NCBI GenBank assembly: GCA_951828515.1
Contig: OX639992.1
Coordinates: 2,146,217-2,210,216, forward strand
DNA: 64,000 nt
Source: an uncultured Poribacteria bacterium
GTDB lineage: Bacteria > Poribacteria > WGA-4E > WGA-3G
Reading direction: 5' to 3'
Each line of letters starts with the position of its first letter. Position 1 is the stretch's first letter. Below the pieces are notes generated by a model. It was not told where the DNA came from. It searched no databases and saw nothing but the letters and a program-made list of their open reading frames with translations. Shown one piece after another: positions 21,463 to 40,169 of the stretch. The position numbers and the translations under genes were made by a program.

Positions 21463-21993
21463 TTAGAATTGTGCGGGGAAGTTTCCGCGTGCGGCATCCA
21501 TGACTTCGGCTGTGATTTCATCGTGTCCGTTGTCTTTGGCAAAACTTTCAATCCCCATCTTCGCCATCGGACGGACAAACGCCGGAATTCGCTCTAAGCG
21601 TTCGAGTGCCTCCACTGTCCAGACGGGACCGCTCGGCTCGGCAGGCTCAGGCTCTTCCTGAAATGCGTCCGAGATGGCAGAGGTAAAGGGACATTTGCCA
21701 CCTTCAGCGGTTTCACCGGTACTCATTCCTGGGGAAAACTCGTTAGGCATCGCTTCGCTTTTTCCTGTCTCTAACTGTGAACGTACCATCTGCATCGGTT
21801 GCGCAGCTTCGTTGTTACCACCGAGTTTGAGATCCAAGGATTTTAACATCTGGGTCTCCGATGGATTGAGGAACATGGCGATCTCTGTAAAACAGTCAGG
21901 ACATTCAAAAAGTGCTGTCACGGAGCCTTGTTCGGGACGGGTTACGTCCTTAAATTTCATCGCTGTGTCACAGTCTGTACATAAAAATTTCAT
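21463..21993 (-). CDS. Zinc-ribbon plus PCP_red-like (BchB/ChlB C-terminal-like) domain protein
   Basis: CxxC..CxxC at the N-terminus. C-terminal WTVEALERLERIPAFVRPMAKMGIESFAKDNGHDEITAEVMD resembles the ChlB C-terminal domain (W.PEA...L.KIPFFVRGK.R..TE.FA...G...IT.E). Confidence 0.5.
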   Translation of the reverse strand: MKFLCTDCDTAMKFKDVTRPEQGSVTALFECPDCFTEIAMFLNPSETQMLKSLDLKLGGNNEAAQPMQMVRSQLETGKSEAMPNEFSPGMSTGETAEGGKCPFTSAISDAFQEEPEPAEPSGPVWTVEALERLERIPAFVRPMAKMGIESFAKDNGHDEITAEVMDAARGNFPAQF

Positions 21994-22160
21994 TTTTTAA
22001 TTATTCCTTTTTTAATTTTCCTTGCGGAGAAACAGCGGACGTTCCAACTTTGACATGCGTTCCTCAAATCCGCTCTCCAAATGTAAAGCAAAGACAAATT
22101 ATGCCATTTAAGGAGAACCTAATTTCATTACGAGCTACGGGTTTTGAGGCTATCGTAACC
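21994..22160 (-). promoter_or_regulatory. Leader repeat family copy abutting the start codon
   Basis: TTTTAATTTTCCTTGCGGAG ... ATCCGCTCTCCAAATGTAAAGCAAAGACAAATTATGCCATTTAAGG ... ATTTCATTACGAGCTACGGG. Confidence 0.6.
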
Positions 22161-22269
22161 TAAATGACCACCTTGTAGCATGGTCTCCTGTTAGGCTGTG
22201 CGTCTTCGGGCACAGGAGGTCAACACTTTCCTACGCTACAAAGAGGTACACTTATTTATCGGCTTGACT

Positions 22270-23154
22270 CTATAGACTTTGAAAAAACGCTTGAACTTTC
22301 TCAGCCACTGCCATGAGTACCTTGCTCGCCGGAGCGTCCGGGTATTCATGAAGATACAAAGTTCCGTCGTCACTGGAACGGGCGAGTTTCGGATCAAAGG
22401 GGACACTGCCCAAAAGATCCTGCTGGAATGCAGTATCCAACGTCTCGTCACTGGAAAAAAGCGGTTCCTTTTCGCCACAGTGTTGACAGACATAGAACGC
22501 CATGTTCTCGACAACACCGATGATTGGGACCTTGAGAACGTCCCTCGCCATTGTTACCGATTTTTTGACGATGAACTGCGAGACCTCAGACGGGATTGTC
22601 ACGACGACGACACCCCCGAGGTCCGGGATCAGTTCTGCCACGTTCGGAAGCCGATCGGTACCGGGAGGCAAATCCAGTAGGAGATAATCCAACGTTCCCC
22701 ATTCCGTATCGCCGATGAATTCTCGGAGCGCGCCAACCTCCATCGCGCTACGCCACGTGAACGCATCCTTCTGGGTGTGCGCATTCCAGATTACCGGGGC
22801 ATCGTCTTCCGCCAAGAGCAAATCCATAGAGATAAGTTTTGTGCCGAGTGCAGTAATCGCAGGCTTGACACCCGCGGGTGTGTATTCCAGCGTAGCATTA
22901 CGCACCCCCATCATCTTGGCAAGTGTCGGTCCGTTGATGTCAGCATCGACGACTCCGACAGTGTTACCCTGCAATGTGAGGGCAGTGGCGAGGTTCGCGG
23001 TGAGCGAACTTTTGCCGACCCCGCCTTTCCCGCTCATAATCGCGACGGTGTGCTTGACTGAAGCGAGTCGTTTCTGGACTCGGTTCGCCTGTGCCTCGAC
23101 TTGCCCGATAATGTTGGAACCGGCATCGCTTGGTAGTTCTTTGTAAGTTTTCAT
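22270..23154 (-). CDS. apbC: Mrp/NBP35 (ApbC) family Fe-S cluster carrier ATPase
   Basis: Deviant Walker A SGKGGVGKSS and a ParA/MinD-like fold. The CxxC motif of the family is not visible in the translation. Confidence 0.8.
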   Translation of the reverse strand: MKTYKELPSDAGSNIIGQVEAQANRVQKRLASVKHTVAIMSGKGGVGKSSLTANLATALTLQGNTVGVVDADINGPTLAKMMGVRNATLEYTPAGVKPAITALGTKLISMDLLLAEDDAPVIWNAHTQKDAFTWRSAMEVGALREFIGDTEWGTLDYLLLDLPPGTDRLPNVAELIPDLGGVVVVTIPSEVSQFIVKKSVTMARDVLKVPIIGVVENMAFYVCQHCGEKEPLFSSDETLDTAFQQDLLGSVPFDPKLARSSDDGTLYLHEYPDAPASKVLMAVAEKVQAFFQSL

Positions 23155-23282
23155 TTATGATAGATTTTAGAATTACTTATACATTGTGACCGGTGAGCGG
23201 GCAACCACGAGGGTTGCCCCTACAGAGAACACGCGTTACGCAAACTATTCAAATAGAGATGATATTACTCGCTTGCACCAGA

Positions 23283-24551
23283 TTAAAAACCACCGATGGC
23301 ATAGAGTGCCTGATAACTGCGCAGATAGAGCGTCCCATTTACGAGAACAGGAGATGCGGCGATGACCTCGCCCATCGAGTTGCTGGCAACGATTTCAAAT
23401 TCACGTCCCGCCTTTACAACGGTGATAACACCATCGCGAGATGTGAGATAAACAAATCCGTCCGCATAGATCGGTGAGGCGCGATGTCGGTGGCGATGTG
23501 TCCGTTCACGATAGAGTTGTTCGCCAGTCTCGGCATCAAGACATATCAGATCCCCGTTTTCTCGACAGAGATAAACTAAACCGTCATGAATAAGCGGGGA
23601 AGGTACATCTGGCGTGCCTTGTCGAAGCTTCCAACGTTGCCACTCGCTGTTTGTAATATCACCCTGTGCCGCCGGATCAATGCCAACAACAGGCCCATTT
23701 TTCGCTGAGGGGACAACGATGAGCCCCTCCATGGCAACCGGAGAAGCGACGAACCGCAGACTGTAGTTATAACGTTCTTTCGGGTTCAGGTCACCACACC
23801 GCCAGATTTCACTGCCATCTTCAAGACTGTGAGCCGTAACATAGTCTGCGCCGTGTACGACGAGATATTCACGTTCTGAATCACGGTAGAGAATGGGAGA
23901 GGTATAAGCGTGTTCACACTCCTCAGTTGCGTCGCTGTCGCGCTTATGCTTCCAGATCTCTTCCCCCGTCATTTTGTCGAGTGCCAGCACAAGCCATGCG
24001 TTGCTGTGGATGAGTTGGATGTAAAGCCGATCCTTATCCAGCAGCGGGGTTGTTGACATGACGAAATAGAGATTAAACCTACCGTAACGGTCGGCGAGAT
24101 TGGTGTGCCACACCTGATTCCCATCGAAATCGTAGCAGGCGAGATCCCCAGTGCCGAGGAACGCCCAGACGTGTTCGCCATCGGTTACGGGAGAGGGAGC
24201 GGCAGAATTGCCTTCGCCGCCGCGGACGACGCGGTTGCCACGTCCTAAAGTCCGCTTCCAGAGTTCTTTGCCTTCGGTACTGATACACATCAAAACAAGT
24301 GTATTGCCTTCAGCAGAGGTAAGGAAAATTTTATCTTCCCAGACAATAGGGGTAGAGGCGGCATCACCTGGGAGCGGCAAACGCCATCGGATATTCTCGG
24401 TTTGGCTCCATTGGATAGGCGCGTCGGTCTCTTGGCTGACACCGTCGTTGTTCGGTCCGCGCCACTGGTGCCAGTTGCCAGCAAAACCATTCGCGACCAG
24501 GATAAACACCCCGAGTAGGAGTGTTAGTGTATTTCGTAAAACATTTCGCAT
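23283..24551 (-). CDS. PQQ-like beta-propeller repeat protein, secreted
   Basis: Signal peptide. Repeated W..xxG propeller blades (WHQWRGPNNDG). Confidence 0.65.
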   Translation of the reverse strand: MRNVLRNTLTLLLGVFILVANGFAGNWHQWRGPNNDGVSQETDAPIQWSQTENIRWRLPLPGDAASTPIVWEDKIFLTSAEGNTLVLMCISTEGKELWKRTLGRGNRVVRGGEGNSAAPSPVTDGEHVWAFLGTGDLACYDFDGNQVWHTNLADRYGRFNLYFVMSTTPLLDKDRLYIQLIHSNAWLVLALDKMTGEEIWKHKRDSDATEECEHAYTSPILYRDSEREYLVVHGADYVTAHSLEDGSEIWRCGDLNPKERYNYSLRFVASPVAMEGLIVVPSAKNGPVVGIDPAAQGDITNSEWQRWKLRQGTPDVPSPLIHDGLVYLCRENGDLICLDAETGEQLYRERTHRHRHRASPIYADGFVYLTSRDGVITVVKAGREFEIVASNSMGEVIAASPVLVNGTLYLRSYQALYAIGGF

Positions 24552-24743
24552 GATGAGCCTCCGCCTTTCAGCACACTTTATTGAGAGTCTATCCCCTCAC
24601 ACGGCATATATAACAACAGAACTTACGCAAAGTGGATAAAAAAGCGATAGATTTCACCGGAAAAGGCGTTATCTCAGTAACCTAACCCTCTAAATCCCCC
24701 TTATCAGGGGGACTTTAAGAAGAACTGCGTAAGTCCTAAACAA

Positions 24744-25172
24744 TTAACGCTTTTCGTCTGTCCACACGCCTCTATCAGGACCATTCCACTGATAAGGCAC
24801 TATTTTTGATAAACTCCCCACGTTGTATTCCAGGAACTCATGTCCAGCCTCTATAACATAACCTTCGTTTGTAAAAATGGGGAATTCCAGATCGGAGAGG
24901 GAAGTAAAAGGTTCAATTTCCAGCGATATGTCGAGCTGACCTTCCACCGTTTTATAGATAAGATCCGCGGAATGGCTTTCGTGCTTGAGGATCATGATTA
25001 CACCGGACTGTTGAACCTTTCCATTAGACGAACAGACCTTCAAGCCGATAACAAGATCCGCTGGTGGCGGAGGAGTCGATTGCACCTTAAACCATAAACT
25101 CTGGACGGTGCCTTCCGCTGACCCTTCATTCGGACCAAGAATTTGGAACGTGACCGTTGGAATATCAGACAT
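24744..25172 (-). CDS. Hypothetical protein
   Basis: ORF with SD AGGAG before ATG 25172. No motifs recognised. Confidence 0.35.
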   Translation of the reverse strand: MSDIPTVTFQILGPNEGSAEGTVQSLWFKVQSTPPPPADLVIGLKVCSSNGKVQQSGVIMILKHESHSADLIYKTVEGQLDISLEIEPFTSLSDLEFPIFTNEGYVIEAGHEFLEYNVGSLSKIVPYQWNGPDRGVWTDEKR

Positions 25173-25333
25173 ACACCTACTCCTACGTTTTAACCAGTTG
25201 ATCAACAATTGCGGTTTATCTAAACATCAATTCTAAAGGCATCTGTGTTGCTCGTTCTTTTTCGGTTGGCTTGTGAATAGGTTTCCCTAACGGACGAAGT
25301 GGCAATTCTCCTTGTGCAAATTTCTGTATTCTT

Positions 25334-25558
25334 TCACGAGTGCTTCTCGTATTTTTTCCCTATGTTGTATGGGGGAGATGTGATGACTAAATCCACTGAA
25401 TTTGATGGAATGCTTTTGAGTAGGTTGTTACAATCTCCTTCAAAGAGCGTAACATCCACATCCGTGTTATAGGTATCTGAAATCTCAATCTGACGTGGCG
25501 TGTTGAAAATACCCGTCTCAACTTCAACTGTCTCAACGCGAGAATCTTGGGATGCCAT
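25334..25558 (-). pseudogene. N-terminal 74-aa remnant of a beta-class N4/N6 DNA methyltransferase (motif IV, SPPY)
   Basis: DLVITSPPYNIGKKYEK. The reading frame stops shortly after the catalytic motif and no continuation is found in the other frames. Confidence 0.5.
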
Positions 25559-25800
25559 GTCAATCTCCTAAGAATGTATCAATTGACAAAAGTCACCTAC
25601 AATAGCGTAGGATTACTTATATTCTATAAATTTCTGTAACTTTTGTCCACCACTATAAGATACGGAGCCATTCAGTTGTCGGTTTTGTGCCAGTGTCGCG
25701 ATTCGGAGATCGCTCCTACCGCGAAAAGTCGGGAATCGGAGTTCCCTCCTACAGGAGAACTGAATGTAAGGAATCTTGATACTTTAGCATGGAGAGGATA

Positions 25801-27705
25801 TCAATCCTGATCTGGCTGTTGATAATACTGCCCAAGCACCTCATTGGCGAGACTTCTGCCGTCCTCAATGACGCGTGCGGCAAAATCAAGCGTAACTTGG
25901 GGAACGTCGTTCTCTTGCGCTCGCTGTTCAATCCGAGTTTGCGTGATATTCCGCATAAACCCAGCAGGCACCAAGTTCAAGCGTTCGAGTGCCTCCTCAG
26001 TCCACTGCACCGGACTCTCAAAGCCCTGTACGACTTCAGCACTCTGAGCGTCGCTCTGTGTCTGCACAGCTCTGAGTTCGGGAGCATCTTCACGGACAGC
26101 CGCCGCTTCACCCATACTGTCGTCAATAATCTCGGTTGCGAAAGTGTTTGTGATAGTGGCAATCTTTTGAGAACGTGCGGACTTCTCAATACGCGCTTTG
26201 ACGTTCCGGCGCATATAACCGCGTGGCACACGCCGCAGTGCCTTTTTCGACTGTTCCGACCACTGGAGTCGCACGCCGTCAAACGTCTCTTCTTCGGCAG
26301 TGCCGCCTTCGTCTACAGCCACATGCTGCAGTGCCCCCTTGTCAACCCTCTGAAAACGCTCCGGTGGTGAACTACAGACGGGACATTTCACGGGTTGTTG
26401 GTTGTGCGCAGCGTAACCACATTCTCCACAGATGTAGGTTTGGACGGCATCCGATTCCAACACTTTCTGTTCGGCGATTTCCTTGGCGACACGCGTCAAT
26501 TGCTCAGAGGCACGTTGTGGCATAATCGCTTCCATCGCCATGTCAATGACGCTTTCGGTAATTACGGAATGCCCACGTTCTATAGCAAACCGATGGACGG
26601 CTGTCTTGGCGATGCCACGGACGAGTGGTGGTGCTTTCTCCATCCTATCCAACGCTTCCTGCGTCCAGACGAGCGTCTCCTCCGCTTTCACATCGATTTG
26701 TGGGAAATAACGCTGACTCGATAAGAGAACGTTGCAAGGTGCCAAACGCAACAGATTTTCGGCAGTGCTACCGATGTCCATATCCTGTTCACTGTGGACT
26801 CCGATTCTGCCTAAAACGAGGAGCCAAGGATTTGTTTTTCGTGCGTATTGTAGGATTTTTTCGTAGGATTTTCCATCAAGTAGGGTAATTTTTAGAGCGT
26901 AGTCGTGTTCCTCTTTTGCGATAGAGCGCGCAACCTCCAAGTGCGACTGATAGATTTTTGCCAACCCTGTATCAATCACCTCTTCGTGGAGTTGCTCCTG
27001 CTCTTTAAACCTGAAAGTCCGTGCGGCGCGTTCCGTGAGTACATTCACAACGGAATTGAAGACGATGTAGTGTAGATACGGATCATAGACGCCAACGGCT
27101 TCGACCTGTTTATTGAACTTATGTCCGAGTTGTATCGCGGTTTTCAAGCCTGAGAAAGATTCCGGACTTCCATCAATTCCGACGAGGATATTTCCTTCGC
27201 TCTCTTCAATCGATTCAAGGTCCCGGACAACAAGCGTATCGGTATTAATACGGCGAACGACGCGTTCACAGACCCCACCGATGAGGCTATCCTTGACGGC
27301 ACCCATACCGAGTGCTCCCATAATCACGAGATCGTAATCGCCTTCCTGAATGTCCTCAACAAGTTTTATGAAATGTTTGCCTTCCGGCATTCTCGGTTCA
27401 AACGGAATCCCAAATTCAGTGCATTTCTGCTGCATCACCTCAAGATAGGAATCCGAGATGAGTTGGAGCCCCATCGTAATGAGCGTATCGTGGATACGAC
27501 GCTGCTTTTCAAGTTCGACCTCGTCTTGGTACTCCTCCGGGAGGGTGTACTCCATCTGCTTAAAGCGAACATCGTGCATTTTTGCGGCGTAAACGTGTGA
27601 ACCTACCAACTGGGACCCGAACTTCCTCGCGAACGCAACTGATAGAGCGATACTCGCGTCCGAGTAGTCGGAATTGTCAACGGGTACGTATATTTTTTTC
27701 ATCAT
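25801..27705 (-). CDS. Multidomain protein with 2 UspA domains, a rubredoxin-like zinc ribbon and 3 PCP_red-like domains
   Basis: UspA-like blocks at residues 1-150 and 160-320. CGECG...CPVC. Three W(T/S)xEA..RL..VP.F.R...T..RIE...A modules. Confidence 0.55.
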   Translation of the reverse strand: MMKKIYVPVDNSDYSDASIALSVAFARKFGSQLVGSHVYAAKMHDVRFKQMEYTLPEEYQDEVELEKQRRIHDTLITMGLQLISDSYLEVMQQKCTEFGIPFEPRMPEGKHFIKLVEDIQEGDYDLVIMGALGMGAVKDSLIGGVCERVVRRINTDTLVVRDLESIEESEGNILVGIDGSPESFSGLKTAIQLGHKFNKQVEAVGVYDPYLHYIVFNSVVNVLTERAARTFRFKEQEQLHEEVIDTGLAKIYQSHLEVARSIAKEEHDYALKITLLDGKSYEKILQYARKTNPWLLVLGRIGVHSEQDMDIGSTAENLLRLAPCNVLLSSQRYFPQIDVKAEETLVWTQEALDRMEKAPPLVRGIAKTAVHRFAIERGHSVITESVIDMAMEAIMPQRASEQLTRVAKEIAEQKVLESDAVQTYICGECGYAAHNQQPVKCPVCSSPPERFQRVDKGALQHVAVDEGGTAEEETFDGVRLQWSEQSKKALRRVPRGYMRRNVKARIEKSARSQKIATITNTFATEIIDDSMGEAAAVREDAPELRAVQTQSDAQSAEVVQGFESPVQWTEEALERLNLVPAGFMRNITQTRIEQRAQENDVPQVTLDFAARVIEDGRSLANEVLGQYYQQPDQD

Positions 27706-27892: not shown

Positions 27893-28168
27893 CTACAGTT
27901 TATCCTGTTCACTTGGTTTGTAACGAGCCCCCAAAAAGCCACCAAGGATATGGGCAATCAACGTTGCGGGCCATAGGTAAATCATCGCAGTTTGCCATGC
28001 CCAGTGGAGAACAAAACGCCGTACAACGATGTTAATAACGATCGGTATGTAGAGGCATCTGCTCCACGGACGACTGAATCTCTTAAACCTGCTACGGTAA
28101 AATCCGAACGTGAAATGAACCACAAAAGCCGCCACCGAAATTAACAAACTTGGTACATCGTTTATCAT
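27893..28168 (-). CDS. Small membrane protein, hypothetical
   Basis: Two to three hydrophobic helices. Last gene of the cox-direction operon. Confidence 0.3.
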   Translation of the reverse strand: MINDVPSLLISVAAFVVHFTFGFYRSRFKRFSRPWSRCLYIPIVINIVVRRFVLHWAWQTAMIYLWPATLIAHILGGFLGARYKPSEQDKL

Positions 28169-28290: not shown

Positions 28291-28956
28291 TCATTTTTCG
28301 AGAAGCACCTTGATATCCCGCCGTAGACGCAAGAGTGCCGGTTTGCTTCGACTATCGTAATAGCCATAGATGTTTCCATCCGGCTCAACGAGAACAAACC
28401 GCGTGCTATGAAGGAGCTCCGTGCCGTTGTGCCCCGCAGCTAAACTGAATCCGTCCTCGGCTAACTGGTAGATAGCTGTCTTGTCCCCAGTAAGAAAGTG
28501 CCAACGTCTATCATCAGCCCCATAAGCCTTTGCGTAGCGCGAGAGGACGCTTGACGTATCCCGCTCCGGATCCACGGAGTAAGAGACAAAATAGACCGGA
28601 TCCGCAACAAATTCGGATTGAAGGCGTGCCATCTCCTGCGTCATTGCCGGACAAATCGTTGGACAATTGGTGAAGATGAAGTCAGCAACCCAAATTTTGC
28701 CCTTCATGTCGGACAGTGTTAACGGCTCTCCGTGCTGTGTTGTCAGGCTAAAGTCCGGGACGCTGACAGCGGCACTTTTAGACACCGGTACTTCCGATTT
28801 AGTGCCAAATACCGACCACAAATTGATACCGGCAATGCCGATGATGATAACACCCAGCACTACCCAGATTAGGGTACTTTTGTCAAGTTTTCGTTCTCGA
28901 AGTCGGGAATCGGAGTTCCCTCCTACACTCTCGGTTTGTGTGTCCATATTGAGCAC
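28291..28956 (-). CDS. SCO1/SenC copper chaperone for cytochrome oxidase assembly
   Basis: Thioredoxin-like CxxxC (FTNCPTICP), N-terminal TM anchor, family-typical length. Confidence 0.8.
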   Translation of the reverse strand: MLNMDTQTESVGGNSDSRLRERKLDKSTLIWVVLGVIIIGIAGINLWSVFGTKSEVPVSKSAAVSVPDFSLTTQHGEPLTLSDMKGKIWVADFIFTNCPTICPAMTQEMARLQSEFVADPVYFVSYSVDPERDTSSVLSRYAKAYGADDRRWHFLTGDKTAIYQLAEDGFSLAAGHNGTELLHSTRFVLVEPDGNIYGYYDSRSKPALLRLRRDIKVLLEK

Positions 28957-28967
28957 CCAACCAGCAG

Positions 28968-29312
28968 TTAGTGAGCGGACGTATCTACAACTTCTGTTGT
29001 CGGTTGCGTTGCGCCTTCGATTCGTGAGTCTAACGTTAGGTCAGGCATCAACGCAAAAACGAGCAGAACGCAGATAATGAAGGGGGTCATTACGATAATC
29101 GCCAACGTCCGCCTTTCAAATTTCAGATGCATGAAATAATTTGCAACTAAGATGGCCTTAGCACATGCCAGTCCGATGAGCAGGATGGCTTTGACTACCG
29201 TCGGGAAATCCGGTATGACGACCAAAAGCTCAAGGACGGTCAGCCCGGTAAGCCACCAGAAAATATTCATGTATTTCGGATGCTCTTTGTGCCCATTCTG
29301 TGCCATTTTCAT
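28968..29312 (-). CDS. Cytochrome c oxidase subunit IV (prokaryotic COX4-like small subunit)
   Basis: 114 aa with 3 TM helices, directly downstream of coxIII. Confidence 0.45.
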   Translation of the reverse strand: MKMAQNGHKEHPKYMNIFWWLTGLTVLELLVVIPDFPTVVKAILLIGLACAKAILVANYFMHLKFERRTLAIIVMTPFIICVLLVFALMPDLTLDSRIEGATQPTTEVVDTSAH

Positions 29313-29318
29313 GTCCTC

Positions 29319-29969
29319 CTATAGTAGATAAATGAAGGTGAAAACCATAATCCAGATAAGATCAACGAAGTGCCAATAGAGCCCGACGATTTCTACCTCA
29401 TGGTTAAATTCAGCCGTATATCTACCGCGTAAGCCGTGGATTAAAATAACAATGAGGTAAATAACACCACCGGTCACGTGCATCCCGTGGAAACCCGTGA
29501 TGGCGTAGAAAGTGGGACCAAAAAGCGTTGAGCCACTAACTGCAGCACCCGACAACCCGTGGTCGGGAATACCCGTAAGTGTCAACCCGTGGTGAATCAG
29601 ATGATACCATTCATAAGCCTGTAGCCCAAGAAAGATTATGCCTCCCCCGATCGTCAATCCAAGGAACATGCACATGCGTGAGACATTGCCGTTCTGAATC
29701 GACTCCAGTGCTTTCACCATCGTGACACTGCTGCATATCAACAGGAATGTCATAAACGCGGTTAGCTCAATGCCAAGAATCTCAGTTGGCGGAACCCAAC
29801 CGATTGCGCCTGCACCTGCTCGGATAGCGGCATAAGCTGCCAACAAGGCACCAAACGACATGGTGTCCCCGACAAGGAAAACCCACATACCGAGCTTACC
29901 AAGACTGTCCGGTGTCAGCGAAGGCTCATATACGTCTTCAGTATGATCTAAAGTGGTAGCGTGTTCCAC
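29319..29969 (-). CDS. coxC: Cytochrome c oxidase subunit III
   Basis: Five to seven TM helices and heme-copper subunit III-like motifs (HGLT, HVTGG, HFVD). Confidence 0.75.
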   Translation of the reverse strand: MEHATTLDHTEDVYEPSLTPDSLGKLGMWVFLVGDTMSFGALLAAYAAIRAGAGAIGWVPPTEILGIELTAFMTFLLICSSVTMVKALESIQNGNVSRMCMFLGLTIGGGIIFLGLQAYEWYHLIHHGLTLTGIPDHGLSGAAVSGSTLFGPTFYAITGFHGMHVTGGVIYLIVILIHGLRGRYTAEFNHEVEIVGLYWHFVDLIWIMVFTFIYLL

Positions 29970-30025
29970 TATATCTAACTCCTTTCCGTTTTAAGAGTTG
30001 TCAGCTGTCAGTACGGGTGCTATGC

Positions 30026-30115
30026 ACCCTTTCAGTTATCAGTTAAGAGGTTTTCGTTTAACAAAAGCCTCTTTTAACCGACTACCGATGACCGATAACC
30101 GATAACCATTCCAAT
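30026..30115. repeat. Hairpin repeat element (CAGTTATCAG ... AAGAGGTTTTCGTTTAACAAAAGCCTCTT ... CCGATAACCGATAACC). It lies in the same orientation as the copy at 31598-31690.
   Basis: Direct reading. Encodes the C-terminus of ORF 30039-30320. Confidence 0.7.
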
Positions 30116-30317
30116 TTAAGAAAATCGTGCCGCCGATGAGACCGAAAACCGTAAACGGCATCGCCATCAGAAAAAGGACACTCCAATTAAAACCTTTAGC
30201 GATCGGCTCATCAAGTTCTTTACAGCCTGGACATGCCTCAACGGACATCGGAACTATAAATATGACGAGTACCAAGATGGCAGCCCATACAGCATTTGTA
30301 TAAAACGATTTGCTCAT
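30039..30317 (-). CDS. Small membrane protein (2 TM, CPGC motif); C-terminal 20 aa encoded by a repeat element
   Basis: Hydrophobic helices. ATG at 30317. Confidence 0.35.
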   Translation of the reverse strand: MSKSFYTNAVWAAILVLVIFIVPMSVEACPGCKELDEPIAKGFNWSVLFLMAMPFTVFGLIGGTIFLNWNGYRLSVIGSRLKEAFVKRKPLN

Positions 30318-30346
30318 CAAAGTATTCGGGCAGGATACCCCTTGCT

Positions 30347-31372
30347 TTAGCTCGGGGAGGAATGCCCGCTCCTATAATTAAAGTTTAGTTTTGTTAGAAC
30401 TTTGAAGTCCATTCGTTTGGCACTTGTTGTGAGTCGTTTTCCATCTAAACTGTAGAGAGCAAACAATCCTTTGGCGTTGATCCCTGCTAATCTTGTGAAT
30501 CCGTATTTGATATGCTTAACAAGTGTGTTCTTTATCAACCCCTCACAGAGCACAGTGCCGCCATATTTTGAACGAACACCCCCCTTTTTGTATTGTTCTC
30601 TATGCAGACTACGTCTCGCTATAGGTATCGGTGATATACAGAATAGGTCTGTATTCTCCAAAATAGGCCCGCCAATTGTATAATAAGCAAGACACCAAGA
30701 ATCTACACAATGCGCCTCAAAAGCGTCAGAGAGTTTCTTTGACGACTTCCTGAGACCGAGGCGATCCCGTATCTCTTTCGTCTCCCACCCTTGAAGCGTT
30801 AGGAGTTCCCACCGCTTTTTGACTTCATCATAGAACCATTGCTTACCGACTTCCAAAGGACTAAATGACGTATTCCATTTCTTGGCACTCTTGAGAGTTC
30901 TTGCTTTGATGTCCTCAACGCATACATGCGTCACAGGGAACAGTTTTGACAGCCACTCAAGGATGCGAAGTTTCCAGTCCCAACGTGCGCGTGTGCCAGC
31001 AGGAATACGCGCTTTATTCAAAAGTCGGTTTGTTCGGTTCTTGCGATTCGGACACTTCCGTGAACGTCTACCTCTACGCAACTCACACCGCTTTTCAACT
31101 TTCTTTCCAACTTTACTATGGGCATCGGCTTGCACATTTAAGTAGGTATGTGCTTTGGATTTGACAGTAAAGCCTTCCTTTTTGCTGCCCGGATCAACAC
31201 CGACAGCGATTTCTTGTGTTTCCCGTGCTACAGGCTCTTTGTTGAGGCGGATACAATAGATACCATTATCAAAATAGGGAGTTGCCTGACCGCGCTTTAC
31301 AAGTTTCCTTGCCCGCGCAGCGTGCATAGGCATCAGTTGTTGTCCGTCTTTGGTCTTAACAGGCACAAACAT
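30347..31372 (-). CDS. isrB: IscB-family RNA-guided nuclease lacking an HNH domain (IsrB-like, OMEGA system)
   Basis: N-terminal PLMP/RRXRR domain (KDGQQLMPMHAARARKLVKRGQA...IYCIRL). RuvC-I IAVGVDPGSKKEGFTV. Arg-rich bridge helix RRGRRSRKCPNRKNRTNR. RuvC-II VCVEDIKA. RuvC-III EAHCVDSWCLAYY. No CxxC..H..N..H HNH motif. The 341-aa length matches IsrB. Confidence 0.6.
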   Translation of the reverse strand: MFVPVKTKDGQQLMPMHAARARKLVKRGQATPYFDNGIYCIRLNKEPVARETQEIAVGVDPGSKKEGFTVKSKAHTYLNVQADAHSKVGKKVEKRCELRRGRRSRKCPNRKNRTNRLLNKARIPAGTRARWDWKLRILEWLSKLFPVTHVCVEDIKARTLKSAKKWNTSFSPLEVGKQWFYDEVKKRWELLTLQGWETKEIRDRLGLRKSSKKLSDAFEAHCVDSWCLAYYTIGGPILENTDLFCISPIPIARRSLHREQYKKGGVRSKYGGTVLCEGLIKNTLVKHIKYGFTRLAGINAKGLFALYSLDGKRLTTSAKRMDFKVLTKLNFNYRSGHSSPS

Positions 31373-31690
31373 AAGTTTGTATTCTCCTTTTCAGGGTATA
31401 TGTTTCCCCATCCAGATCATAGTATCCAAGAAGAATCAGACTTGGGGAGCATCCGAAACGTTGTTCTAACTGCCACGTCAAGATACTACGATATATTACT
31501 GTAGTCAACCGTTTAACTTGTGGAGTGGACGTTTGGCGGACGCTTCGCACAGGTCCCCCGAATTTATTCGGGGGTTATTGACTTAACACTTCCTTTTTAT
31601 AGGTGTCAGTGGTCAGTTTTCAGTTAAAGAGGACTCTGGTTCAACGGATCTGCCTTTTAACCGACTCCTGATAACCGATAACCAACAACC
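31373..31690 (-). ncRNA. Candidate omegaRNA region of the IsrB element
   Basis: A 318-bp non-coding stretch immediately 5' of isrB on the same strand. Contains a strong hairpin CCCCCGAATTTATTCGGGGG (31554-31573) and a repeat-element hairpin at the distal end. Placement is by analogy to known IsrB loci. Confidence 0.35.
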
Positions 31691-31691
31691 A

Positions 31692-32270
31692 TTAAAAGAG
31701 ATACACCAACACATAGAGAATTGGCCAGAGGGCGACAACAAAAATCCAGTAGATAGTACAAGTATCAATGCCGACGTAACCTTCGGCTGAGAAACGACCC
31801 GCCATCGCCATCCCAAAAACTATAAATAGCCAGATAACAGCACTCAGCACGTGAACGGCATGGCATCCGATGAGTACATAAAAGATACCACCATAGACAC
31901 CAGATTGGAGGGTAAGCCCATTGCGAATCAACTGTATCCATTCGCTTCCCTGTACGCCGAGGAAGAGTAAGCCAAGTCCTCCTGTAAGCAACAACCAATT
32001 GCGGAGTTGCTTCAGTTGGTCCTTCTGAATTGCGCGGCGTGCTTGAAACATCGTGTAGCCGCTCAATAGGAGAAGCACAGTGTTGATGCCGGTTACCGCG
32101 CGTGGCAGTTCAATCCCGATATGCGATGGTGGGGGCCAGGTGACATTTCCCACTCGAAAGACGAGAAATGTACCGATGAGCCCTGAAAACAGCATCGTCT
32201 CTGCACCCAGCAGGACTAATATTCCCAATCGTGCGTTGCTCAAGGGTGAACGTTGGTGCATTTCTGCCAT
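31692..32270 (-). CDS. Second cytochrome c oxidase subunit III-like protein
   Basis: Five TM helices and subunit III-like His pattern (HAVHVLS). Confidence 0.65.
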   Translation of the reverse strand: MAEMHQRSPLSNARLGILVLLGAETMLFSGLIGTFLVFRVGNVTWPPPSHIGIELPRAVTGINTVLLLLSGYTMFQARRAIQKDQLKQLRNWLLLTGGLGLLFLGVQGSEWIQLIRNGLTLQSGVYGGIFYVLIGCHAVHVLSAVIWLFIVFGMAMAGRFSAEGYVGIDTCTIYWIFVVALWPILYVLVYLF

Positions 32271-32512
32271 CAGTCACGCACCCTATTTCTTACAATCCGA
32301 AGAACAATCTCAACGACCGCGGCGATAACCAGTAGTAGTCCGATAACACCCAAAACAGGGACGACCAGACTCTTGATGACACTTTCAACAGACTGAGGTG
32401 CTTTGCTGCCTGTAATAATTGCAATCGTTACGACGACAAACAATCCTGCAAACAGTAGACACAAAATGAGTCCGAGGCGGCGGTTTTGCTTGCGGTGTTC
32501 TGGCGTGTTCAT
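32270..32512 (-). CDS. Small membrane protein (possible oxidase subunit IV-like)
   Basis: 80 aa with 2 TM helices. The start overlaps the coxIII-like gene by 4 bp. Confidence 0.3.
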   Translation of the reverse strand: MNTPEHRKQNRRLGLILCLLFAGLFVVVTIAIITGSKAPQSVESVIKSLVVPVLGVIGLLLVIAAVVEIVLRIVRNRVRD

Positions 32513-32529
32513 AATCTGCGGACTCCCGA

Positions 32530-33456
32530 CTAAATTTTATCCAACGCCATTGTGACAAATACCAACGGCAGATAGAGCAGCGAAGCATATAGCAGATAGC
32601 GTGCGGCTTTCACTGAACGTGTGCGTGCTAAATAGATACCGACTGCCAGAAACGCCACGCCTGATAGTAGTGCTGTGAAGAAATAGACTGTCCCGGCAAT
32701 GTTATACAACGTCGGTAACAAGCCTATTCCGAGGAGCGCGACGCAATTAACCACAATCTGGCGGCACGTGCTTGTCCCATCCGGATGAATGACCGGCAAC
32801 AAACGGAATCCTGCTTTTGCGTAGTCTTCGCGATAGATGTAGGCAATTGCGAGAGAATGCGGGATCTGCCACAAAAAGAGTATCGTAAACAGCACCCATG
32901 CCTCGCCTGTTAGCGAACCTCGTGCGGCAACCCATCCAACGACAGGTGGGAGCGCGCCGGGTACAGCACCAATAAGCGTACACAGTGAGGTTTTCCGCTT
33001 GAGTGGTGTATAGAGAAAGAGATAACTCACGACTATCAGCGAAATGACAAAACCGCTCAGCATATTGACGACGAATGTCAGGTAAAGCATCCCACTGCCT
33101 GTAAGGACAGCACCGACAAGAAGTGCGGTCAGAGGGCTCATTCTCCCGCCAGGGAGCGGTCTCTCCTGCGTCCGTTTCATCTGAGCGTCTACATCGCGCT
33201 CAAGGTATTGGTTGAGCCCTAAGACACCAGCAGCGGTCAATCCAGCACCAAAGAGAGTATGTAGACCTCGGAGCCAATCTACAGTCTGTTGTGCGCCGAG
33301 ATAGAAGCCGGCAGCAGTCGTAATGAGTATCATCACCACCAATCTCGGCTTGACGAGTTCGATAAAGTCTGCGACACTTGGCGCGAAAACGTCTTGCTTC
33401 GATGGTTGCTTCGCCGTATCTGTATTATCTGGCAATGTTACCGTTGTTGAACGCAT
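32530..33456 (-). CDS. ctaB: Protoheme IX farnesyltransferase (heme O synthase)
   Basis: UbiA prenyltransferase fold with 8-9 TM helices and D/N-rich motifs. Confidence 0.85.
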   Translation of the reverse strand: MRSTTVTLPDNTDTAKQPSKQDVFAPSVADFIELVKPRLVVMILITTAAGFYLGAQQTVDWLRGLHTLFGAGLTAAGVLGLNQYLERDVDAQMKRTQERPLPGGRMSPLTALLVGAVLTGSGMLYLTFVVNMLSGFVISLIVVSYLFLYTPLKRKTSLCTLIGAVPGALPPVVGWVAARGSLTGEAWVLFTILFLWQIPHSLAIAYIYREDYAKAGFRLLPVIHPDGTSTCRQIVVNCVALLGIGLLPTLYNIAGTVYFFTALLSGVAFLAVGIYLARTRSVKAARYLLYASLLYLPLVFVTMALDKI

Positions 33457-33556
33457 TTTTTAATTATACCTTGCGGAGGAATGACGTAGATTGAAATTTT
33501 GACCCACCATTCTCACGAGTCGCCCTCCACTTCGTTACGGGCTACGGTTACGAAAA
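33457..33556 (-). promoter_or_regulatory. Leader repeat family copy abutting the ctaB start
   Basis: TTTTTTAATTATACCTTGCGGAGG ... GTCGCCCTCCACTTCGTTACGGGCTACGG. Confidence 0.6.
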
Positions 33557-33650
33557 TTAGCTTAAGACAACAGCTTGCAACAGCGGCACAGGGAGATATG
33601 AGAGAAATATCAACAAACCAATCGCCTCATTAACGCCTTGCAAATCATTG

Positions 33651-34775: not shown

Positions 34776-34795
34776 CCTTCCATCTACCTCCGTTA
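34716..34795. repeat. GAAGATTGG x3 microsatellite followed by a ~55-nt polypyrimidine tract at the coxA/ctaA junction
   Basis: Direct reading. Confidence 0.8.
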
Positions 34796-36616: not shown

Positions 36617-36636
36617 CGTTATCGTCCTCCTTCAGC

Positions 36637-40162: not shown

Positions 40163-40169
40163 TTTTTCT

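What the first reader, a model, noticed from the sequence alone, without database searches (positions are those of the whole stretch)
21463..27705. Paralogous zinc-ribbon/PCP_red-domain proteins, one fused to tandem USP domains, flanking an Mrp/ApbC Fe-S carrier and a PQQ-propeller protein
Protein 25801-27705 combines two UspA domains, a rubredoxin-like CxxC..CxxC ribbon and three copies of a ~50-aa module (W[TS]xEAL.RL..VP.F.R…ARIE…). The module resembles the C-terminal domain of the protochlorophyllide reductase BchB/ChlB subunit (PCP_red). Protein 21463-21993 is a minimal ribbon plus one module. Between them lie an Mrp/ApbC P-loop Fe-S cluster carrier and a secreted PQQ-like beta-propeller. 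This organism shows no other sign of chlorophyll synthesis here. The neighbourhood therefore suggests an uncharacterised system using the PCP_red module, perhaps as an Fe-S or nitrogenase-like partner-binding domain in stress or metal-centre assembly.
Basis: partly seen in the sequence, partly recalled or inferred. Interest (0 to 1): 0.7.

Follow-up and report, generated by a model that had tools for sequence, protein, structure and literature searches.

The report
Oxidase-linked PCP_red, USP and Mrp module
Two proteins carrying a small domain otherwise known only from a chlorophyll enzyme flank an iron-sulfur carrier ATPase at the end of a large respiratory gene island, and this trio recurs next to oxygen-reducing enzymes in more than ten bacterial phyla, which points to an unstudied helper system, most likely for haem handling.

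Summary
Gene 25801-27705(-) encodes two USP domains, three PCP_red modules and a rubredoxin-like ribbon. Gene 21463-21993(-) encodes a zinc ribbon plus one PCP_red module. An Mrp/NUBPL-type P-loop ATPase and a PQQ_2 propeller lie between them.

The conserved unit is a three-gene set, UspPCP, Mrp and small PCP_red protein (sPCP), found tightly linked in many phyla. The propeller and a 154-aa ORF are Poribacteria-only inserts (0/47 loci elsewhere).

In the window the trio ends a 32.6-kb co-directional respiratory island: Rieske/cytochrome b, a bd-like oxidase with cytochromes c, aa3 oxidase, CtaA/CtaB and SCO1.

Outside Poribacteria, 40/47 loci carry terminal-oxidase genes within 10 kb. In 32/47 there is an AhbD/NirJ2-like radical SAM enzyme fused to PCP_red.

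The small protein has an invariant Cys-Pro-Phe motif (123/124 sequences), like a haem regulatory motif.

Best reading (confidence 0.45): a haem (Fe-tetrapyrrole) maturation and hand-off system for terminal oxidases, with Mrp supplying Fe-S clusters. Rivals are PCP_red as an Mrp docking tag, pure USP regulation, and copper handling.

No paper on this was found. Function is inferred only.

The parts
25801..27705 (-). UspPCP gene (634 aa): tandem USP, PCP_red-1, rubredoxin-like ribbon, PCP_red-2, PCP_red-3
   Evidence: ORF. Pfam Usp 117.9 bits and PCP_red 95.6 bits in 3 stretches. At least 596 species genomes encode relatives. 325 clusters at 50% identity have E<1e-30.
27220..27699 (-). USP domain 1 (aa 3-162), with a long conserved helical insert and a G-x2-G-x9-G-G motif
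   Evidence: Pfam. Motif GALGMGAVKDSLIGG at aa 130. Most homologues have G-S at the end of the motif.
26722..27192 (-). USP domain 2 (aa 172-328), with the canonical ATP-binding motif G-x2-G-x9-G-S
   Evidence: Pfam best stretch 172-328. Motif GRIGVHSEQDMDIGS at aa 299.
26533..26670 (-). PCP_red module 1 (aa 346-391), BchB-like subtype (P-x-[FL]-V-R)
   Evidence: Pfam stretch 347-389. 49% identical to the small protein's module. Coordinates checked by translation.
26353..26436 (-). Rubredoxin-like ribbon C-x2-C-x11-C-P-x-C (aa 424-451)
   Evidence: RUBY_RBDX 21.8 bits, below the 26.5 cut-off. NCBIfam rubrerythrin 28.8 bits. The same CxxC pair, 15 residues apart, is kept in most three-module homologues.
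26122..26265 (-). PCP_red module 2 (aa 481-528), subtype with P-x-G-[FY]-M-R and a 4-residue insert
   Evidence: Module HMM i-E 3e-31. Alignment.
25864..26007 (-). PCP_red module 3 (aa 567-614), same subtype as module 2
   Evidence: Module HMM i-E 9.7e-32. Alignment.
22270..23154 (-). Mrp/NUBPL-type P-loop ATPase (294 aa), the central gene of the conserved trio
   Evidence: PF10609 237.6 bits. GKGGVGKS at aa 42 and CQHC at aa 223. Outside Poribacteria it starts 16-122 nt after UspPCP in 14 of 28 loci, and 16-338 nt in 16 of 28.
21463..21993 (-). Small PCP_red protein, sPCP (176 aa): zinc ribbon, disordered linker, CPF motif, PCP_red
   Evidence: PCP_red 62.4 bits. Conserved across phyla. Model pLDDT is 82-86 for PCP_red and below 50 for residues 49-120. 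Foldseek hits 2kru, 2l09 and 2ynm_D.
21892..21981 (-). sPCP zinc ribbon C5-x2-C8...C31-P-x-C34
   Evidence: All four Cys are invariant in 12 sequences from 8 lineages.
21682..21699 (-). Invariant G-K-C-P-F-T motif (aa 99-104), resembling a haem regulatory (Cys-Pro) motif
   Evidence: A single CPF occurs in 123/124 distinct sPCP sequences, a median of 20 residues before the PCP_red Trp. 118/124 have exactly five Cys. The CP-motif definition is from PMC6356037.
21484..21624 (-). sPCP PCP_red module (aa 124-170)
   Evidence: Pfam 125-169 covers the full 45-position model. Foldseek to ChlB 2ynm_D gives rmsd 1.0 over 49 columns.
23283..24551 (-). PQQ_2/BamB-like beta-propeller with a signal-like N-terminus. 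It is a lineage-specific insert, not part of the conserved module.
   Evidence: PQQ_2 88.7 bits. Found in 25/33 Poribacteria loci and 0/47 other loci.
24744..25208 (-). 154-aa ORF with no family. It is a lineage-specific insert.
   Evidence: No Pfam or NCBIfam hit. Found in 16/33 Poribacteria loci and 0/47 others.
27893..28168 (-). 91-aa membrane protein directly upstream of UspPCP, conserved in Poribacteria
   Evidence: Seen by tblastn in most of the 35 Poribacteria loci, including lower-identity ones (45-50% identity in L029, L032, L039). No Pfam hit.
28291..37302 (-). Context: SCO1, COX4, COX3 (two copies), CtaB, CtaA, COX1 and COX2 (aa3-type oxidase and haem a synthesis)
   Evidence: Pfam. 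Same order in L001/L002.
39380..47067 (-). Context: bd-like (CydA-like) oxidase subunit, three cytochrome c proteins (one with EB_dh) and a cupredoxin-like protein
   Evidence: Pfam. HNVH...CDIHGWM motif. The same gene set lies upstream of UspPCP in Rhodothermales, Calditrichia and Latescibacterota.
51610..54040 (-). Context: Rieske protein and split cytochrome b, the start of the co-directional respiratory island
   Evidence: Pfam.

Best explanation
UspPCP, Mrp and sPCP form a conserved three-gene accessory module of terminal-oxidase gene clusters.

Shown:
- The trio is syntenic and tightly spaced in many phyla.
- It sits at the 3' end of a respiratory island in the window.
- In most other lineages it lies beside aa3-type and/or bd-like oxidase genes, and beside an AhbD/NirJ2-like radical SAM/SPASM enzyme that ends in its own PCP_red domain.

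Inferred mechanism:
1. The system handles an iron tetrapyrrole (coprohaem or haem b) destined for the oxidases.
2. The radical SAM enzyme is encoded beside the trio in most other lineages and about 37 kb downstream in a close relative of this genome. It makes or modifies the haem.
3. Mrp loads that enzyme's two [4Fe-4S] clusters.
4. The PCP_red modules work as small helical caps or docking units. In DPOR, PCP_red forms the end of the BchB C-terminal region, and a helix of that region covers the tetrapyrrole cavity. Here the modules would hold the tetrapyrrole, or each other, during transfer.
5. The sPCP Cys-Pro-Phe motif, in a disordered linker, gives a transient thiolate ligand to the haem iron.
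6. The tandem USP domains bind an adenine nucleotide. They tie hand-off by the three-module scaffold to the cell's energy state.
For: - Domains are present.
- The family is broad: 325 clusters at 50% identity with E<1e-30, and at least 596 species.
- Synteny outside Poribacteria: Mrp downstream 31/40; sPCP 26/40; rSAM-PCP_red within 9 kb 32/47; any terminal-oxidase gene within 10 kb 40/47. I estimate a few percent would be expected for a random gene.
- Gaps are short, as in operons. UspPCP to Mrp is 16-122 nt in 14 of 28 loci. Mrp to sPCP ranges from -18 to 119 nt in 16 of 18.
- In the window the trio ends a 32.6-kb co-directional respiratory island.
- In Binatia locus L166, UspPCP and rSAM-PCP_red lie between two bd-like oxidase modules.
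- The rSAM's best families are AhbD (329.8 bits) and NirJ2 (345.3 bits), far above the best peptide-maturase match (167 bits, mycofactocin maturase; PqqE 131-138 bits).
- 118/120 rSAM homologues have CX3CX2C plus the exact AhbD auxiliary motif CX2CX5CX2CX17C (motif from PMC10114771).
- CPF is invariant in 123/124 sPCPs and lies in a segment with pLDDT below 50. CP motifs are the best-known haem regulatory motifs (PMC6356037).
- Ten UspPCP variants have CP[FVMY] before a PCP_red module; six of them also have a His close after it (for example CPFAHE, CPVSHA).
- Mrp and the rSAM co-occur: 25 both, 3 Mrp only, 3 rSAM only, 6 neither.
- Precedents from PMC10114771: HemW is a radical-SAM-type haem chaperone for a respiratory enzyme, and an AhbD-like enzyme is suspected for coprohaem decarboxylation.
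Against: - There is no direct evidence of haem binding.
- The PCP_red modules have no conserved His/Cys/Tyr axial ligand.
- I could not verify at residue level that the 45-aa PCP_red segment, rather than an earlier BchB helix, touches Pchlide.
- The rSAM gene is not in this window. In a related genome it is 37 kb away.
- In an sPCP-anchored metagenome sample, only 16/53 loci had Mrp adjacent. The rest sat in an unrelated context.
- Chloroflexota-type loci have UspPCP next to bd-like oxidases with no Mrp, sPCP or rSAM.
- An oxygen-labile radical SAM haem enzyme is unexpected in aerobes.
- Both structure models are poor outside single domains (pLDDT 56.7 and 58.7).
Confidence: 0.45

Rival explanations
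1. Fe-S delivery reading. PCP_red is a docking tag recognised by the dedicated Mrp ATPase dimer. Mrp would use it to find its clients: the rSAM-PCP_red enzyme and perhaps the ribbon proteins. It would then load their Fe-S or Fe(Cys)4 centres. UspPCP would be a nucleotide-gated adaptor with three docking sites. No tetrapyrrole would be bound by PCP_red.
For: - Mrp is sandwiched between two PCP_red proteins with very short gaps.
- Mrp and rSAM-PCP_red co-occur: 25 both, 3 Mrp only, 3 rSAM only, 6 neither.
- The only characterised PCP_red carrier, BchB, is the partner of BchL, a P-loop ATPase homodimer with overall structural similarity to the nitrogenase Fe protein (PMC7242693). The window's Mrp gives weak hits to the NifH and BchL families.
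- The Mrp has the GKGGVGKS and CxxC motifs of Fe-S carriers.
Against: - UspPCP occurs beside oxidases with no Mrp in Chloroflexota, Dormibacterota, Holophagales and Planctomycetota loci.
- sPCP is often not next to Mrp (37/53).
- This reading does not explain the invariant CPF motif, or why the client is specifically a tetrapyrrole-type rSAM.
- No evidence that BchB's C-terminal domain contacts BchL was found in the papers I could read.
Confidence: 0.2
2. Regulatory reading. UspPCP (and sPCP) are stress, hypoxia or energy-state regulators of oxidase expression or activity, as proposed for other tandem USP proteins. The neighbourhood would reflect co-regulation rather than cofactor chemistry.
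For: - There are two USP domains with ATP-binding motifs.
- UspPCP alone accompanies bd-like oxidases in Chloroflexota-type loci.
- Each of the two PCP_red genes in the window has its own promoter-like upstream element.
Against: - This does not explain the tight coupling to an Fe-S carrier and to a tetrapyrrole-type rSAM that shares the same rare domain.
- No DNA-binding or signalling output domain was detected.
- The shared upstream element is a dispersed genomic repeat, not a specific regulon mark.
Confidence: 0.15
3. Copper reading. The Cys-rich ribbons and the CPF cysteine bind Cu(I). They would feed the CuA/CuB sites together with SCO1 and the CopD-like membrane protein.
For: - SCO1 lies just upstream, separated from UspPCP only by the 91-aa membrane-protein gene.
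- A CopD-like membrane protein lies directly downstream of sPCP in many loci.
- A cupredoxin-like protein is in the island.
Against: - The CopD match is weak and equally close to HemJ.
- bd-type oxidases are described as copper-free (PMC8951039 abstract), yet the association with bd-like oxidases is strong.
- This reading does not explain the AhbD-like rSAM or the PCP_red domain.
Confidence: 0.08
4. Reading as first written. A five-gene system that includes the secreted PQQ-like propeller and uses PCP_red to bind a nitrogenase-like partner.
For: All five genes are co-directional in the window and in close Poribacteria relatives.
Against: - The propeller and the 154-aa ORF are absent from all 47 non-Poribacteria loci, and from some Poribacteria loci.
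- No nitrogenase-like gene was found among the window ORFs scanned.
Confidence: 0.03

Closest known systems
C-terminal PCP_red domain (PF08369) of DPOR subunit BchB/ChlB
   Same: The sequence family and three-helix fold are the same. Scores are 62-96 bits against a cut-off of 32.5. Foldseek to ChlB 2ynm_D gives rmsd 1.0 over 49 columns. In DPOR this domain is the end of the BchB C-terminal region, and a helix of that region covers the tetrapyrrole cavity (PMC4071322).
   Different: There is no nitrogenase-like core: NCBIfam BchB scores are 43-59 bits against cut-offs of 490-912. There are no bchL or bchN genes, and the host is not a phototroph. The modules are repeated up to six times per protein and fused to USP, ribbon or radical SAM domains. 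BchB lacks the CPF motif and has GGSIPP at that place.
Stand-alone PCP_red proteins solved by structural genomics (PDB 2L09 Asr4154 from Nostoc; 2KRU)
   Same: They are single PCP_red domains outside a BchB core. They are the best Foldseek hits to the sPCP model (E 9e-4 and 1.4e-3).
   Different: They are about 62 aa with no ribbon, no CPF motif and no known context. No function is described for them.
Tandem universal stress proteins (PF00582), such as ATP-binding tandem USPs of mycobacteria (from my own knowledge)
   Same: Two USP domains with the G-x2-G-x9-G-(S/T) nucleotide motif.
   Different: This subfamily has long, highly conserved helical inserts in both domains and a C-terminal array of PCP_red modules. 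No NCBIfam model names it.
Mrp/ApbC/NUBPL/MrpORP Fe-S cluster carrier ATPases
   Same: PF10609 at 237.6 bits, the deviant Walker A motif GKGGVGKS, and a CxxC pair.
   Different: It is below the equivalog cut-offs for MrpORP (237.7 versus 450) and ApbC (169.3 versus 348). No other domain family was detected beyond overlapping P-loop NTPase families on the same stretch. It has a fixed position between two PCP_red genes.
AhbD (haem b synthase) and NirJ/NirJ2 radical SAM enzymes. This applies to the neighbour gene in related loci, not to a gene in the window.
   Same: They are the best-scoring families (330-345 bits). The CX3CX2C motif and the AhbD auxiliary motif CX2CX5CX2CX17C are present in 118/120 homologues.
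   Different: Scores are below the equivalog cut-off of 500. The enzyme carries an extra C-terminal PCP_red domain. It is encoded beside terminal oxidases in aerobes rather than in a sirohaem-dependent pathway cluster.
HemW, a radical-SAM-type haem chaperone for respiratory enzymes (functional analogy only)
   Same: It is a radical-SAM-family protein that binds haem and inserts it into a membrane respiratory enzyme, and it needs its Fe-S cluster (PMC10114771).
   Different: It belongs to a different radical SAM clade (CgdH/HemN-like). It has no PCP_red, USP or Mrp partners. The analogy is untested here.
Haem regulatory (Cys-Pro) motifs
   Same: A Cys-Pro dipeptide followed by a hydrophobic residue, in a disordered and exposed segment (PMC6356037).
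   Different: Membership is defined by haem binding, which was not tested. The motif is short and could serve another metal or a thiol chemistry.

Membership tests
PCP_red domain (PF08369) | Sequence match above the Pfam gathering score (32.5 bits) | tested here: met
   62.4 bits (small protein) and 95.6 bits over 3 stretches (large protein).
PCP_red domain (PF08369) | Small helical fold that superposes on solved PCP_red domains | tested here: met
   sPCP model residues 121-170 have pLDDT 82-86. Foldseek: 2kru E 9e-4 with TMt 0.77; 2l09; 2ynm_D rmsd 1.0 over 49 columns.
DPOR subunit B (BchB/ChlB) | Nitrogenase-like catalytic core, scoring above the NCBIfam equivalog cut-offs | tested here: not met
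   Scores are 42.6-58.6 bits against cut-offs of 490-912. Only the last 55-75 model positions match.
DPOR subunit B (BchB/ChlB) | Partner genes bchL/chlL and bchN/chlN nearby | tested here: not met
   None among the window ORFs of 150 aa or more that were scanned against Pfam. The rest of the genome was not seen.
Universal stress protein (PF00582) | Match above the gathering score (24 bits) | tested here: met
   117.9 bits in two stretches.
Universal stress protein (PF00582), ATP-binding class | G-x2-G-x9-G-(S/T) motif | tested here: met
   GRIGVHSEQDMDIGS at aa 299. Domain 1 has GALGMGAVKDSLIGG, where homologues have G-S. Nucleotide binding itself cannot be tested here.
Mrp/NUBPL Fe-S carrier ATPase (PF10609) | Family match, deviant Walker A motif and conserved CxxC | tested here: met
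   237.6 bits. GKGGVGKS at aa 42 and CQHC at aa 223.
MrpORP / ApbC equivalogs (NCBIfam) | Score above the equivalog cut-off | tested here: not met
   MrpORP 237.7 versus 450; ApbC 169.3 versus 348.
Mrp/NUBPL Fe-S carrier ATPase | Binds and transfers a [4Fe-4S] cluster | not testable with these tools
   This needs biochemistry.
PQQ-dependent dehydrogenase | Score above the subfamily cut-off and the PQQ-enzyme architecture | tested here: not met
   TIGR03075 35.2 versus 480; BamB 65.8 versus 285. Only the generic PQQ_2 repeat matches (88.7 bits).
Rubredoxin-like domain of rubrerythrin (PF21349) | Match above the gathering score (26.5 bits), with four Cys in two knuckles | tested here: inconclusive
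   21.8 bits, below the cut-off. The CxxC...CPxC pattern is conserved in most three-module homologues, and some homologues carry the PF21349 annotation.
Haem regulatory motif (CP motif) | Cys-Pro dipeptide in an exposed, flexible segment | tested here: met
   CPF in 123/124 sequences. The segment has pLDDT below 50. The definition is from PMC6356037.
Haem regulatory motif (CP motif) | Binds haem through the Cys thiolate | not testable with these tools
   This needs spectroscopy of the wild type and the C101A variant.
AhbD/NirJ tetrapyrrole radical SAM enzymes (neighbour in related loci) | CX3CX2C plus the auxiliary motif CX2CX5CX2CX17C | tested here: met
   118/120 homologues. The motif is from PMC10114771.
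AhbD/NirJ tetrapyrrole radical SAM enzymes (neighbour in related loci) | Score above the equivalog cut-off (500 bits) | tested here: not met
   AhbD 329.8 and 306.2 bits; NirJ2 306.2 and 345.3 bits.
AhbD/NirJ tetrapyrrole radical SAM enzymes | Gene present in this window | tested here: not met
   tblastn of the window finds only the PCP_red tail match in sPCP. In a 91%-identical relative the gene lies 37 kb downstream.

The most novel reading that the evidence does not exclude
PCP_red is a general tetrapyrrole hand-off domain, not a chlorophyll-specific one. The UspPCP, Mrp and sPCP genes, together with the AhbD-like rSAM-PCP_red enzyme and the CopD/HemJ-like membrane protein, would then form a previously unrecognised route. 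This route would make haem b from coprohaem, or modify haem, and deliver it directly to terminal oxidases (aa3 and the uncharacterised bd-like OR-N enzymes) in aerobic bacteria of many phyla.
Probability: 0.25. Interest if true: 0.8.

Novelty: new variant of a known kind. Interest (0 to 1): 0.64.

Why it matters
How haem b reaches membrane oxidases is poorly understood. So is how the cofactors of the bd-like (OR-N) oxidases are made.

This finding is a widespread, tightly linked gene set with three notable features:
- It joins a tetrapyrrole-type radical SAM enzyme, a dedicated Fe-S carrier and four to six copies of a domain so far characterised only in the chlorophyll enzyme DPOR.
- It sits inside oxidase gene clusters in more than ten phyla.
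- It includes candidate phyla known only from metagenomes and sponge symbionts.

It gives concrete proteins and a single cysteine to test. If the haem reading is right, it would give PCP_red a general role in tetrapyrrole transfer. It would also add a new accessory system to respiratory-chain biogenesis. If the Fe-S reading is right, it would be a rare case of a client-targeting tag for an Mrp-type carrier.

Tried and rejected
1. **Shared 5' leader as a riboswitch or regulon mark.**
- The roughly 150-nt upstream regions of the two PCP_red genes are 84% identical.
- They show no significant fold (z -0.74 and -0.56) and no Rfam match.
- Both halves recur in front of unrelated genes and at four other window sites.
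- I rejected this as a specific signal. It is a dispersed palindromic intergenic repeat.

2. **Homology of the two zinc ribbons.** No alignment was found.

3. **First search alignment (30 sequences).** It was too diverse for the search for related loci and was replaced by a 10-sequence alignment.

4. **Structure prediction.**
- sPCP reached pLDDT 56.7 and UspPCP 58.7.
- The alignments were shallow, because only hits from the search for homologous proteins could be used.
- Only the sPCP PCP_red module reaches pLDDT above 80; in the UspPCP model only isolated stretches of the USP domains and of PCP_red module 2 do. No inter-domain conclusions were drawn, and the UspPCP model was not used for fold search.

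5. **PDB sequence searches** of three conserved unknown neighbours (c32, c37, c26) gave nothing.

6. **Literature.**
- Searches for PCP_red/PF08369, 'PCP reductase family', and bd-like oxidase plus radical SAM plus USP found no paper on this system.
- The OR-N oxidase paper and a Nitrospirales genome paper do not mention radical SAM or USP neighbours.
- The PNAS paper on the DPOR ternary complex is not held.

7. **sPCP-anchored metagenome sample.** It showed that adjacency to Mrp is not universal. In 37/53 loci sPCP sits next to a D-Ala-D-Ala carboxypeptidase-like gene and a HAD-like gene. I treat this as dispersal of the genes in some high-GC soil lineages, not as a second system.

8. **The 612-687-aa rSAM-PCP_red forms in Brocadia** are not near oxidases. 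They are a separate subfamily.

Full report
**1. Observation**

Pfam results:
- 25801-27705 (634 aa): Usp 117.9 bits in two stretches; PCP_red 95.6 bits in three stretches (cut-off 32.5); a rubrerythrin-type rubredoxin ribbon at 21.8 bits (below its 26.5 cut-off).
- 21463-21993 (176 aa): PCP_red 62.4 bits over the whole 45-position model.
- 22270-23154: the NUBPL/Mrp P-loop family PF10609 at 237.6 bits.
- 23283-24551: PQQ_2 at 88.7 bits.

NCBIfam matches to BchB cover only the last 55-75 model positions. They score 43-59 bits against cut-offs of 490-912, so these are isolated PCP_red domains and not DPOR subunits.

The two proteins are related only through the PCP_red modules (49% identity, E 3e-11). 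The ribbons do not align.

Module and motif coordinates were checked by translation.

**2. Organism and breadth**

The closest proteins are labelled Candidatus Poribacteria.

The fusion is not a local oddity:
- An exhaustive HMMER search of 1.84 billion cluster representatives gave 325 clusters at E<1e-30.
- Of the best 150, most have tandem USP followed by one to six PCP_red modules, often with the same CxxC...CxxC ribbon.
- A scan of one genome per species found at least 596 species. They include Poribacteria, Rhodothermales/Bacteroidota, Calditrichia, Latescibacterota, Krumholzibacteriia, Methylomirabilota/Rokubacteria, TA06, Tectomicrobia/Entotheonella, Binatia, Chloroflexota, Dormibacterota, Holophagales and Planctomycetota.

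**3. What is conserved around it**

I compared the window proteins with 82 loci by tblastn and clustered ORFs de novo.

Outside Poribacteria (47 loci):

| Feature | Count |
|---|---|
| Mrp downstream of UspPCP, same strand | 31/40 loci with enough flank |
| sPCP downstream | 26/40 |
| PQQ-like propeller | 0/47 |
| 154-aa ORF | 0/47 |

- The gap from UspPCP to Mrp is 16-122 nt in 14 of 28 loci.
- The gap from Mrp to sPCP ranges from -18 to 119 nt in 16 of 18 loci.

The conserved core is therefore a trio: UspPCP, Mrp and sPCP. The propeller, the 154-aa ORF and a DNA-methylase fragment (about 25335-25556) are Poribacteria-specific fillers. In the window they stretch the trio over 6.2 kb.

**4. 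The respiratory context**

Pfam scans of the rest of the window show that the trio is the 3' end of a 32.6-kb run of co-directional genes. In order of transcription these are:
- Rieske protein (53552-54040)
- split cytochrome b (51610-53436)
- a 1036-aa multihaem cytochrome c
- a CydA-like 'bd-like' oxidase subunit (45172-47067)
- three cytochrome c proteins, one with an EB_dh haem domain
- a cupredoxin-like protein (39380-40162; HNVH...CDIHGWM)
- an ABC-2 transporter
- COX2, COX1, CtaA, CtaB, two COX3 genes, COX4 and SCO1
- a 91-aa membrane protein
- then UspPCP

The same association holds elsewhere. 40/47 non-Poribacteria loci have aa3-type, haem a or bd-like oxidase genes within 10 kb. By my estimate only a few percent would be expected for a random gene.

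- In Rhodothermales, Calditrichia and Latescibacterota the order is bd-like subunit, three cytochromes c, rSAM, three unknown genes, UspPCP, Mrp, sPCP, then cupredoxin-like protein and COX genes.
- In a Binatia contig, UspPCP and the rSAM lie between two bd-like oxidase modules.
- The bd-like subunits fit the OR-N family, whose members lack a quinol site and sit with alternative electron donors (bioRxiv 10.1101/2021.01.16.426971). That paper does not mention these neighbours.

**5. A third and fourth PCP_red protein**

The most frequent further neighbour is a protein of about 430 aa (32/47 loci). It has Radical_SAM, SPASM and a C-terminal PCP_red domain.
- Its best NCBIfam families are haem b synthase AhbD (329.8 and 306.2 bits) and NirJ2 (306.2 and 345.3 bits). 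Both are below the 500-bit equivalog cut-offs but far above the best peptide-maturase match (167 bits, mycofactocin maturase; PqqE 131-138 bits).
- 118 of 120 homologues carry CX3CX2C and the exact AhbD auxiliary-cluster motif CX2CX5CX2CX17C (motif from PMC10114771).

Next to it are often two more genes:
- a CopD/HemJ-like membrane protein
- a 137-aa protein with a weak PCP_red match

The window lacks these genes. In the 76-88% identity Poribacteria clade they directly follow sPCP. In a genome whose UspPCP is 91% identical to the window's, they lie 37 kb further downstream on the same strand. The cluster was therefore split in the window's lineage, and that part falls beyond the window edge.

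Mrp and the rSAM co-occur: 25 loci have both, 3 have only Mrp, 3 have only the rSAM, and 6 have neither.

**6. The small protein**

sPCP is strongly conserved across phyla. Its parts are:
- an N-terminal ribbon domain (MKFLCxxCD...CPxC...ETQ)
- a variable linker
- an invariant G-x-C-P-F-[TAS] motif
- the PCP_red module

Among 124 distinct sequences from genomes and metagenomes, 123 have exactly one CPF, a median of 20 residues before the PCP_red tryptophan. 118 have exactly five cysteines.

The linker is predicted to be disordered (pLDDT below 50 for residues 49-120). BchB has no cysteine at this place.

A Cys-Pro dipeptide in an exposed flexible stretch is the best-known kind of haem regulatory motif (PMC6356037). 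Ten UspPCP variants have CP[FVMY] before a PCP_red module, and six of them also have a His close after it, for example CPFAHE and CPVSHA.

**7. Mechanism**

What is shown:
- the domain content
- the trio's synteny
- its link to terminal-oxidase clusters
- its link to an AhbD/NirJ-type enzyme that shares the rare domain

What is inferred: the system handles an iron tetrapyrrole for the oxidases. Four points lead there:
1. The only characterised PCP_red belongs to the BchB C-terminal region, a helix of which covers the protochlorophyllide cavity (PMC4071322).
2. The fused rSAM belongs to the clade that acts on haem precursors.
3. The CPF motif looks like a transient haem ligand.
4. CtaB and CtaA, which convert haem b to haem o and haem a, are in the same island.

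Mrp would supply the rSAM's two [4Fe-4S] clusters. The USP pair would couple the scaffold to nucleotide levels.

There are precedents (PMC10114771). HemW is a radical-SAM-type haem chaperone for a respiratory enzyme. An AhbD-like enzyme is suspected for coprohaem decarboxylation.

I give this reading 0.45.

**8. Rivals**

- **PCP_red as a docking tag for the Mrp dimer, that is, dedicated Fe-S delivery (0.2).** It explains the sandwich arrangement and the Mrp-rSAM co-occurrence. It does not explain loci that have UspPCP but no Mrp, nor the CPF motif. It is compatible with part of the main reading.
- **Pure USP-type regulation of oxidases (0.15).** It fits the Chloroflexota-type loci, where UspPCP alone accompanies bd-like oxidases. 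It leaves the rest unexplained.
- **Copper handling (0.08).** It rests on SCO1, the weak CopD match and the cupredoxin-like gene.
- **The five-gene system as first written (0.03).** The synteny contradicts it.

**9. Limits**

- No function was tested.
- The sPCP-anchored metagenome sample shows that adjacency is not universal. Mrp was adjacent in 16/53 loci. All ten of those with at least 3.5 kb upstream also had the tandem USP. The other 37 sat in an unrelated context.
- Counts are of loci, not of independent events.
- Some sPCP hits in Methylomirabilota may be the rSAM's own PCP_red tail.
- Both AlphaFold models are poor beyond single domains.
- I could not check at residue level whether the PF08369 segment itself touches Pchlide or BchL.

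**10. Novelty**

- Sources name these proteins only 'universal stress protein', 'PCP reductase family protein' and 'radical SAM protein'.
- No NCBIfam model names them.
- Full-text searches found no paper on the system.
- The parts belong to known families, but the assembly and its link to oxidases appear undescribed.
- I rate it a new variant of a known kind (respiratory cofactor-maturation accessory systems), with interest 0.64.

Noticed in passing
window 30347-31372 (-) and 31379-31582 (-): A 341-aa RRXRR-domain ORF (103 bits; IscB/IsrB-like, no HNH found) is inserted between the two COX3 genes. Directly upstream is a full-length but weak HEARO (omega-RNA) match (23.2 bits against a gathering score of 83, E 0.035). 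In other Poribacteria the same site holds an N6_N4 DNA methylase (L001 7052-7939).
   Followed up: partly
window 27706-27900 (-), 21994-22190 (-), 14781-14920 (+), 5087-5161 (-), 48291-48470, 63738-63849 (-): This is a dispersed intergenic repeat with two halves. One half is a palindrome, AAATTATGCC-TTAAAT-GGCATAATTT, which also reads as an extended -10 (TGgCATAAT). The other is a leader ending in GTTTCTCCGCAAGGAAAATTAAAAA-ATG. It precedes both PCP_red genes, an SDR gene and, in other Poribacteria, ctaB. It shows no significant RNA fold and no Rfam match.
   Followed up: yes
window 21463-54040 (-): A 32.6-kb co-directional respiratory island. It holds Rieske/split cytochrome b, a 1036-aa multihaem cytochrome c, a bd-like (OR-N type) oxidase with three cytochromes c, a cupredoxin-like protein, an ABC-2 transporter, aa3 oxidase, CtaA/CtaB and SCO1.
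   Followed up: partly
window ~25335-25556 (-): A 74-codon fragment resembling the N-terminus of a DNA methyltransferase (DVDLVITSPPY motif), ending in a stop. It is a likely pseudogene remnant between UspPCP and the 154-aa ORF.
   Followed up: partly
L044 7889-8689, 8807-9472, 9424-9912, 13449-13808(-), 19071-19577; L041 7971-9875: Five conserved soluble proteins with no Pfam or NCBIfam match; the three searched against PDB sequences (c32, c37, c26) also gave nothing. My clusters are c32, c37, c25, c26 and c28. They travel with the trio in Rhodothermales, Latescibacterota and Calditrichia. c26 also occurs in Poribacteria, after the rSAM gene.
   Followed up: partly
L083 3789-11471 (ENA ERZ21830300 ctg717594l, 2.95 Mb): In a close Poribacteria relative the split-off half of the cluster reads: TP_methylase, 3HCDH, VTT, EamA, CopD-like, rSAM-SPASM-PCP_red, PhyH, small PCP_red protein, an unknown gene, HEAT. 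The tetrapyrrole-methylase-family gene and the PhyH dioxygenase may belong to it.
   Followed up: no
window 39380-40162 (-): A secreted 260-aa protein with a CarboxypepD_reg-like C-terminus carries HNVH...C-x2-H-x2-M, like a type-1 copper site. Homologues sit immediately before COX1, or before UspPCP, in other phyla (cluster c21).
   Followed up: partly
window 8367-12309 (-): Three tandem paralogues of the serine beta-lactamase/esterase family (PF00144, 215-229 bits each).
   Followed up: no
window 15946-18297 (-): A 783-aa protein with four Big_1 Ig-like repeats and three PPPPPPP-VVKNS proline-rich repeats. Next to it is a 739-aa Big_12/LTD-domain protein (18791-21010). These fill the place where other Poribacteria have the CopD-like and rSAM genes.
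   Followed up: no
L165 9001-11064, L167 9001-10839: Longer (612-687 aa) rSAM-SPASM-PCP_red proteins occur in Brocadia-type anammox bacteria; one was named 'nirJ 3' by its source. They sit next to a dCache histidine kinase and response regulator, not next to oxidases.
   Followed up: partly
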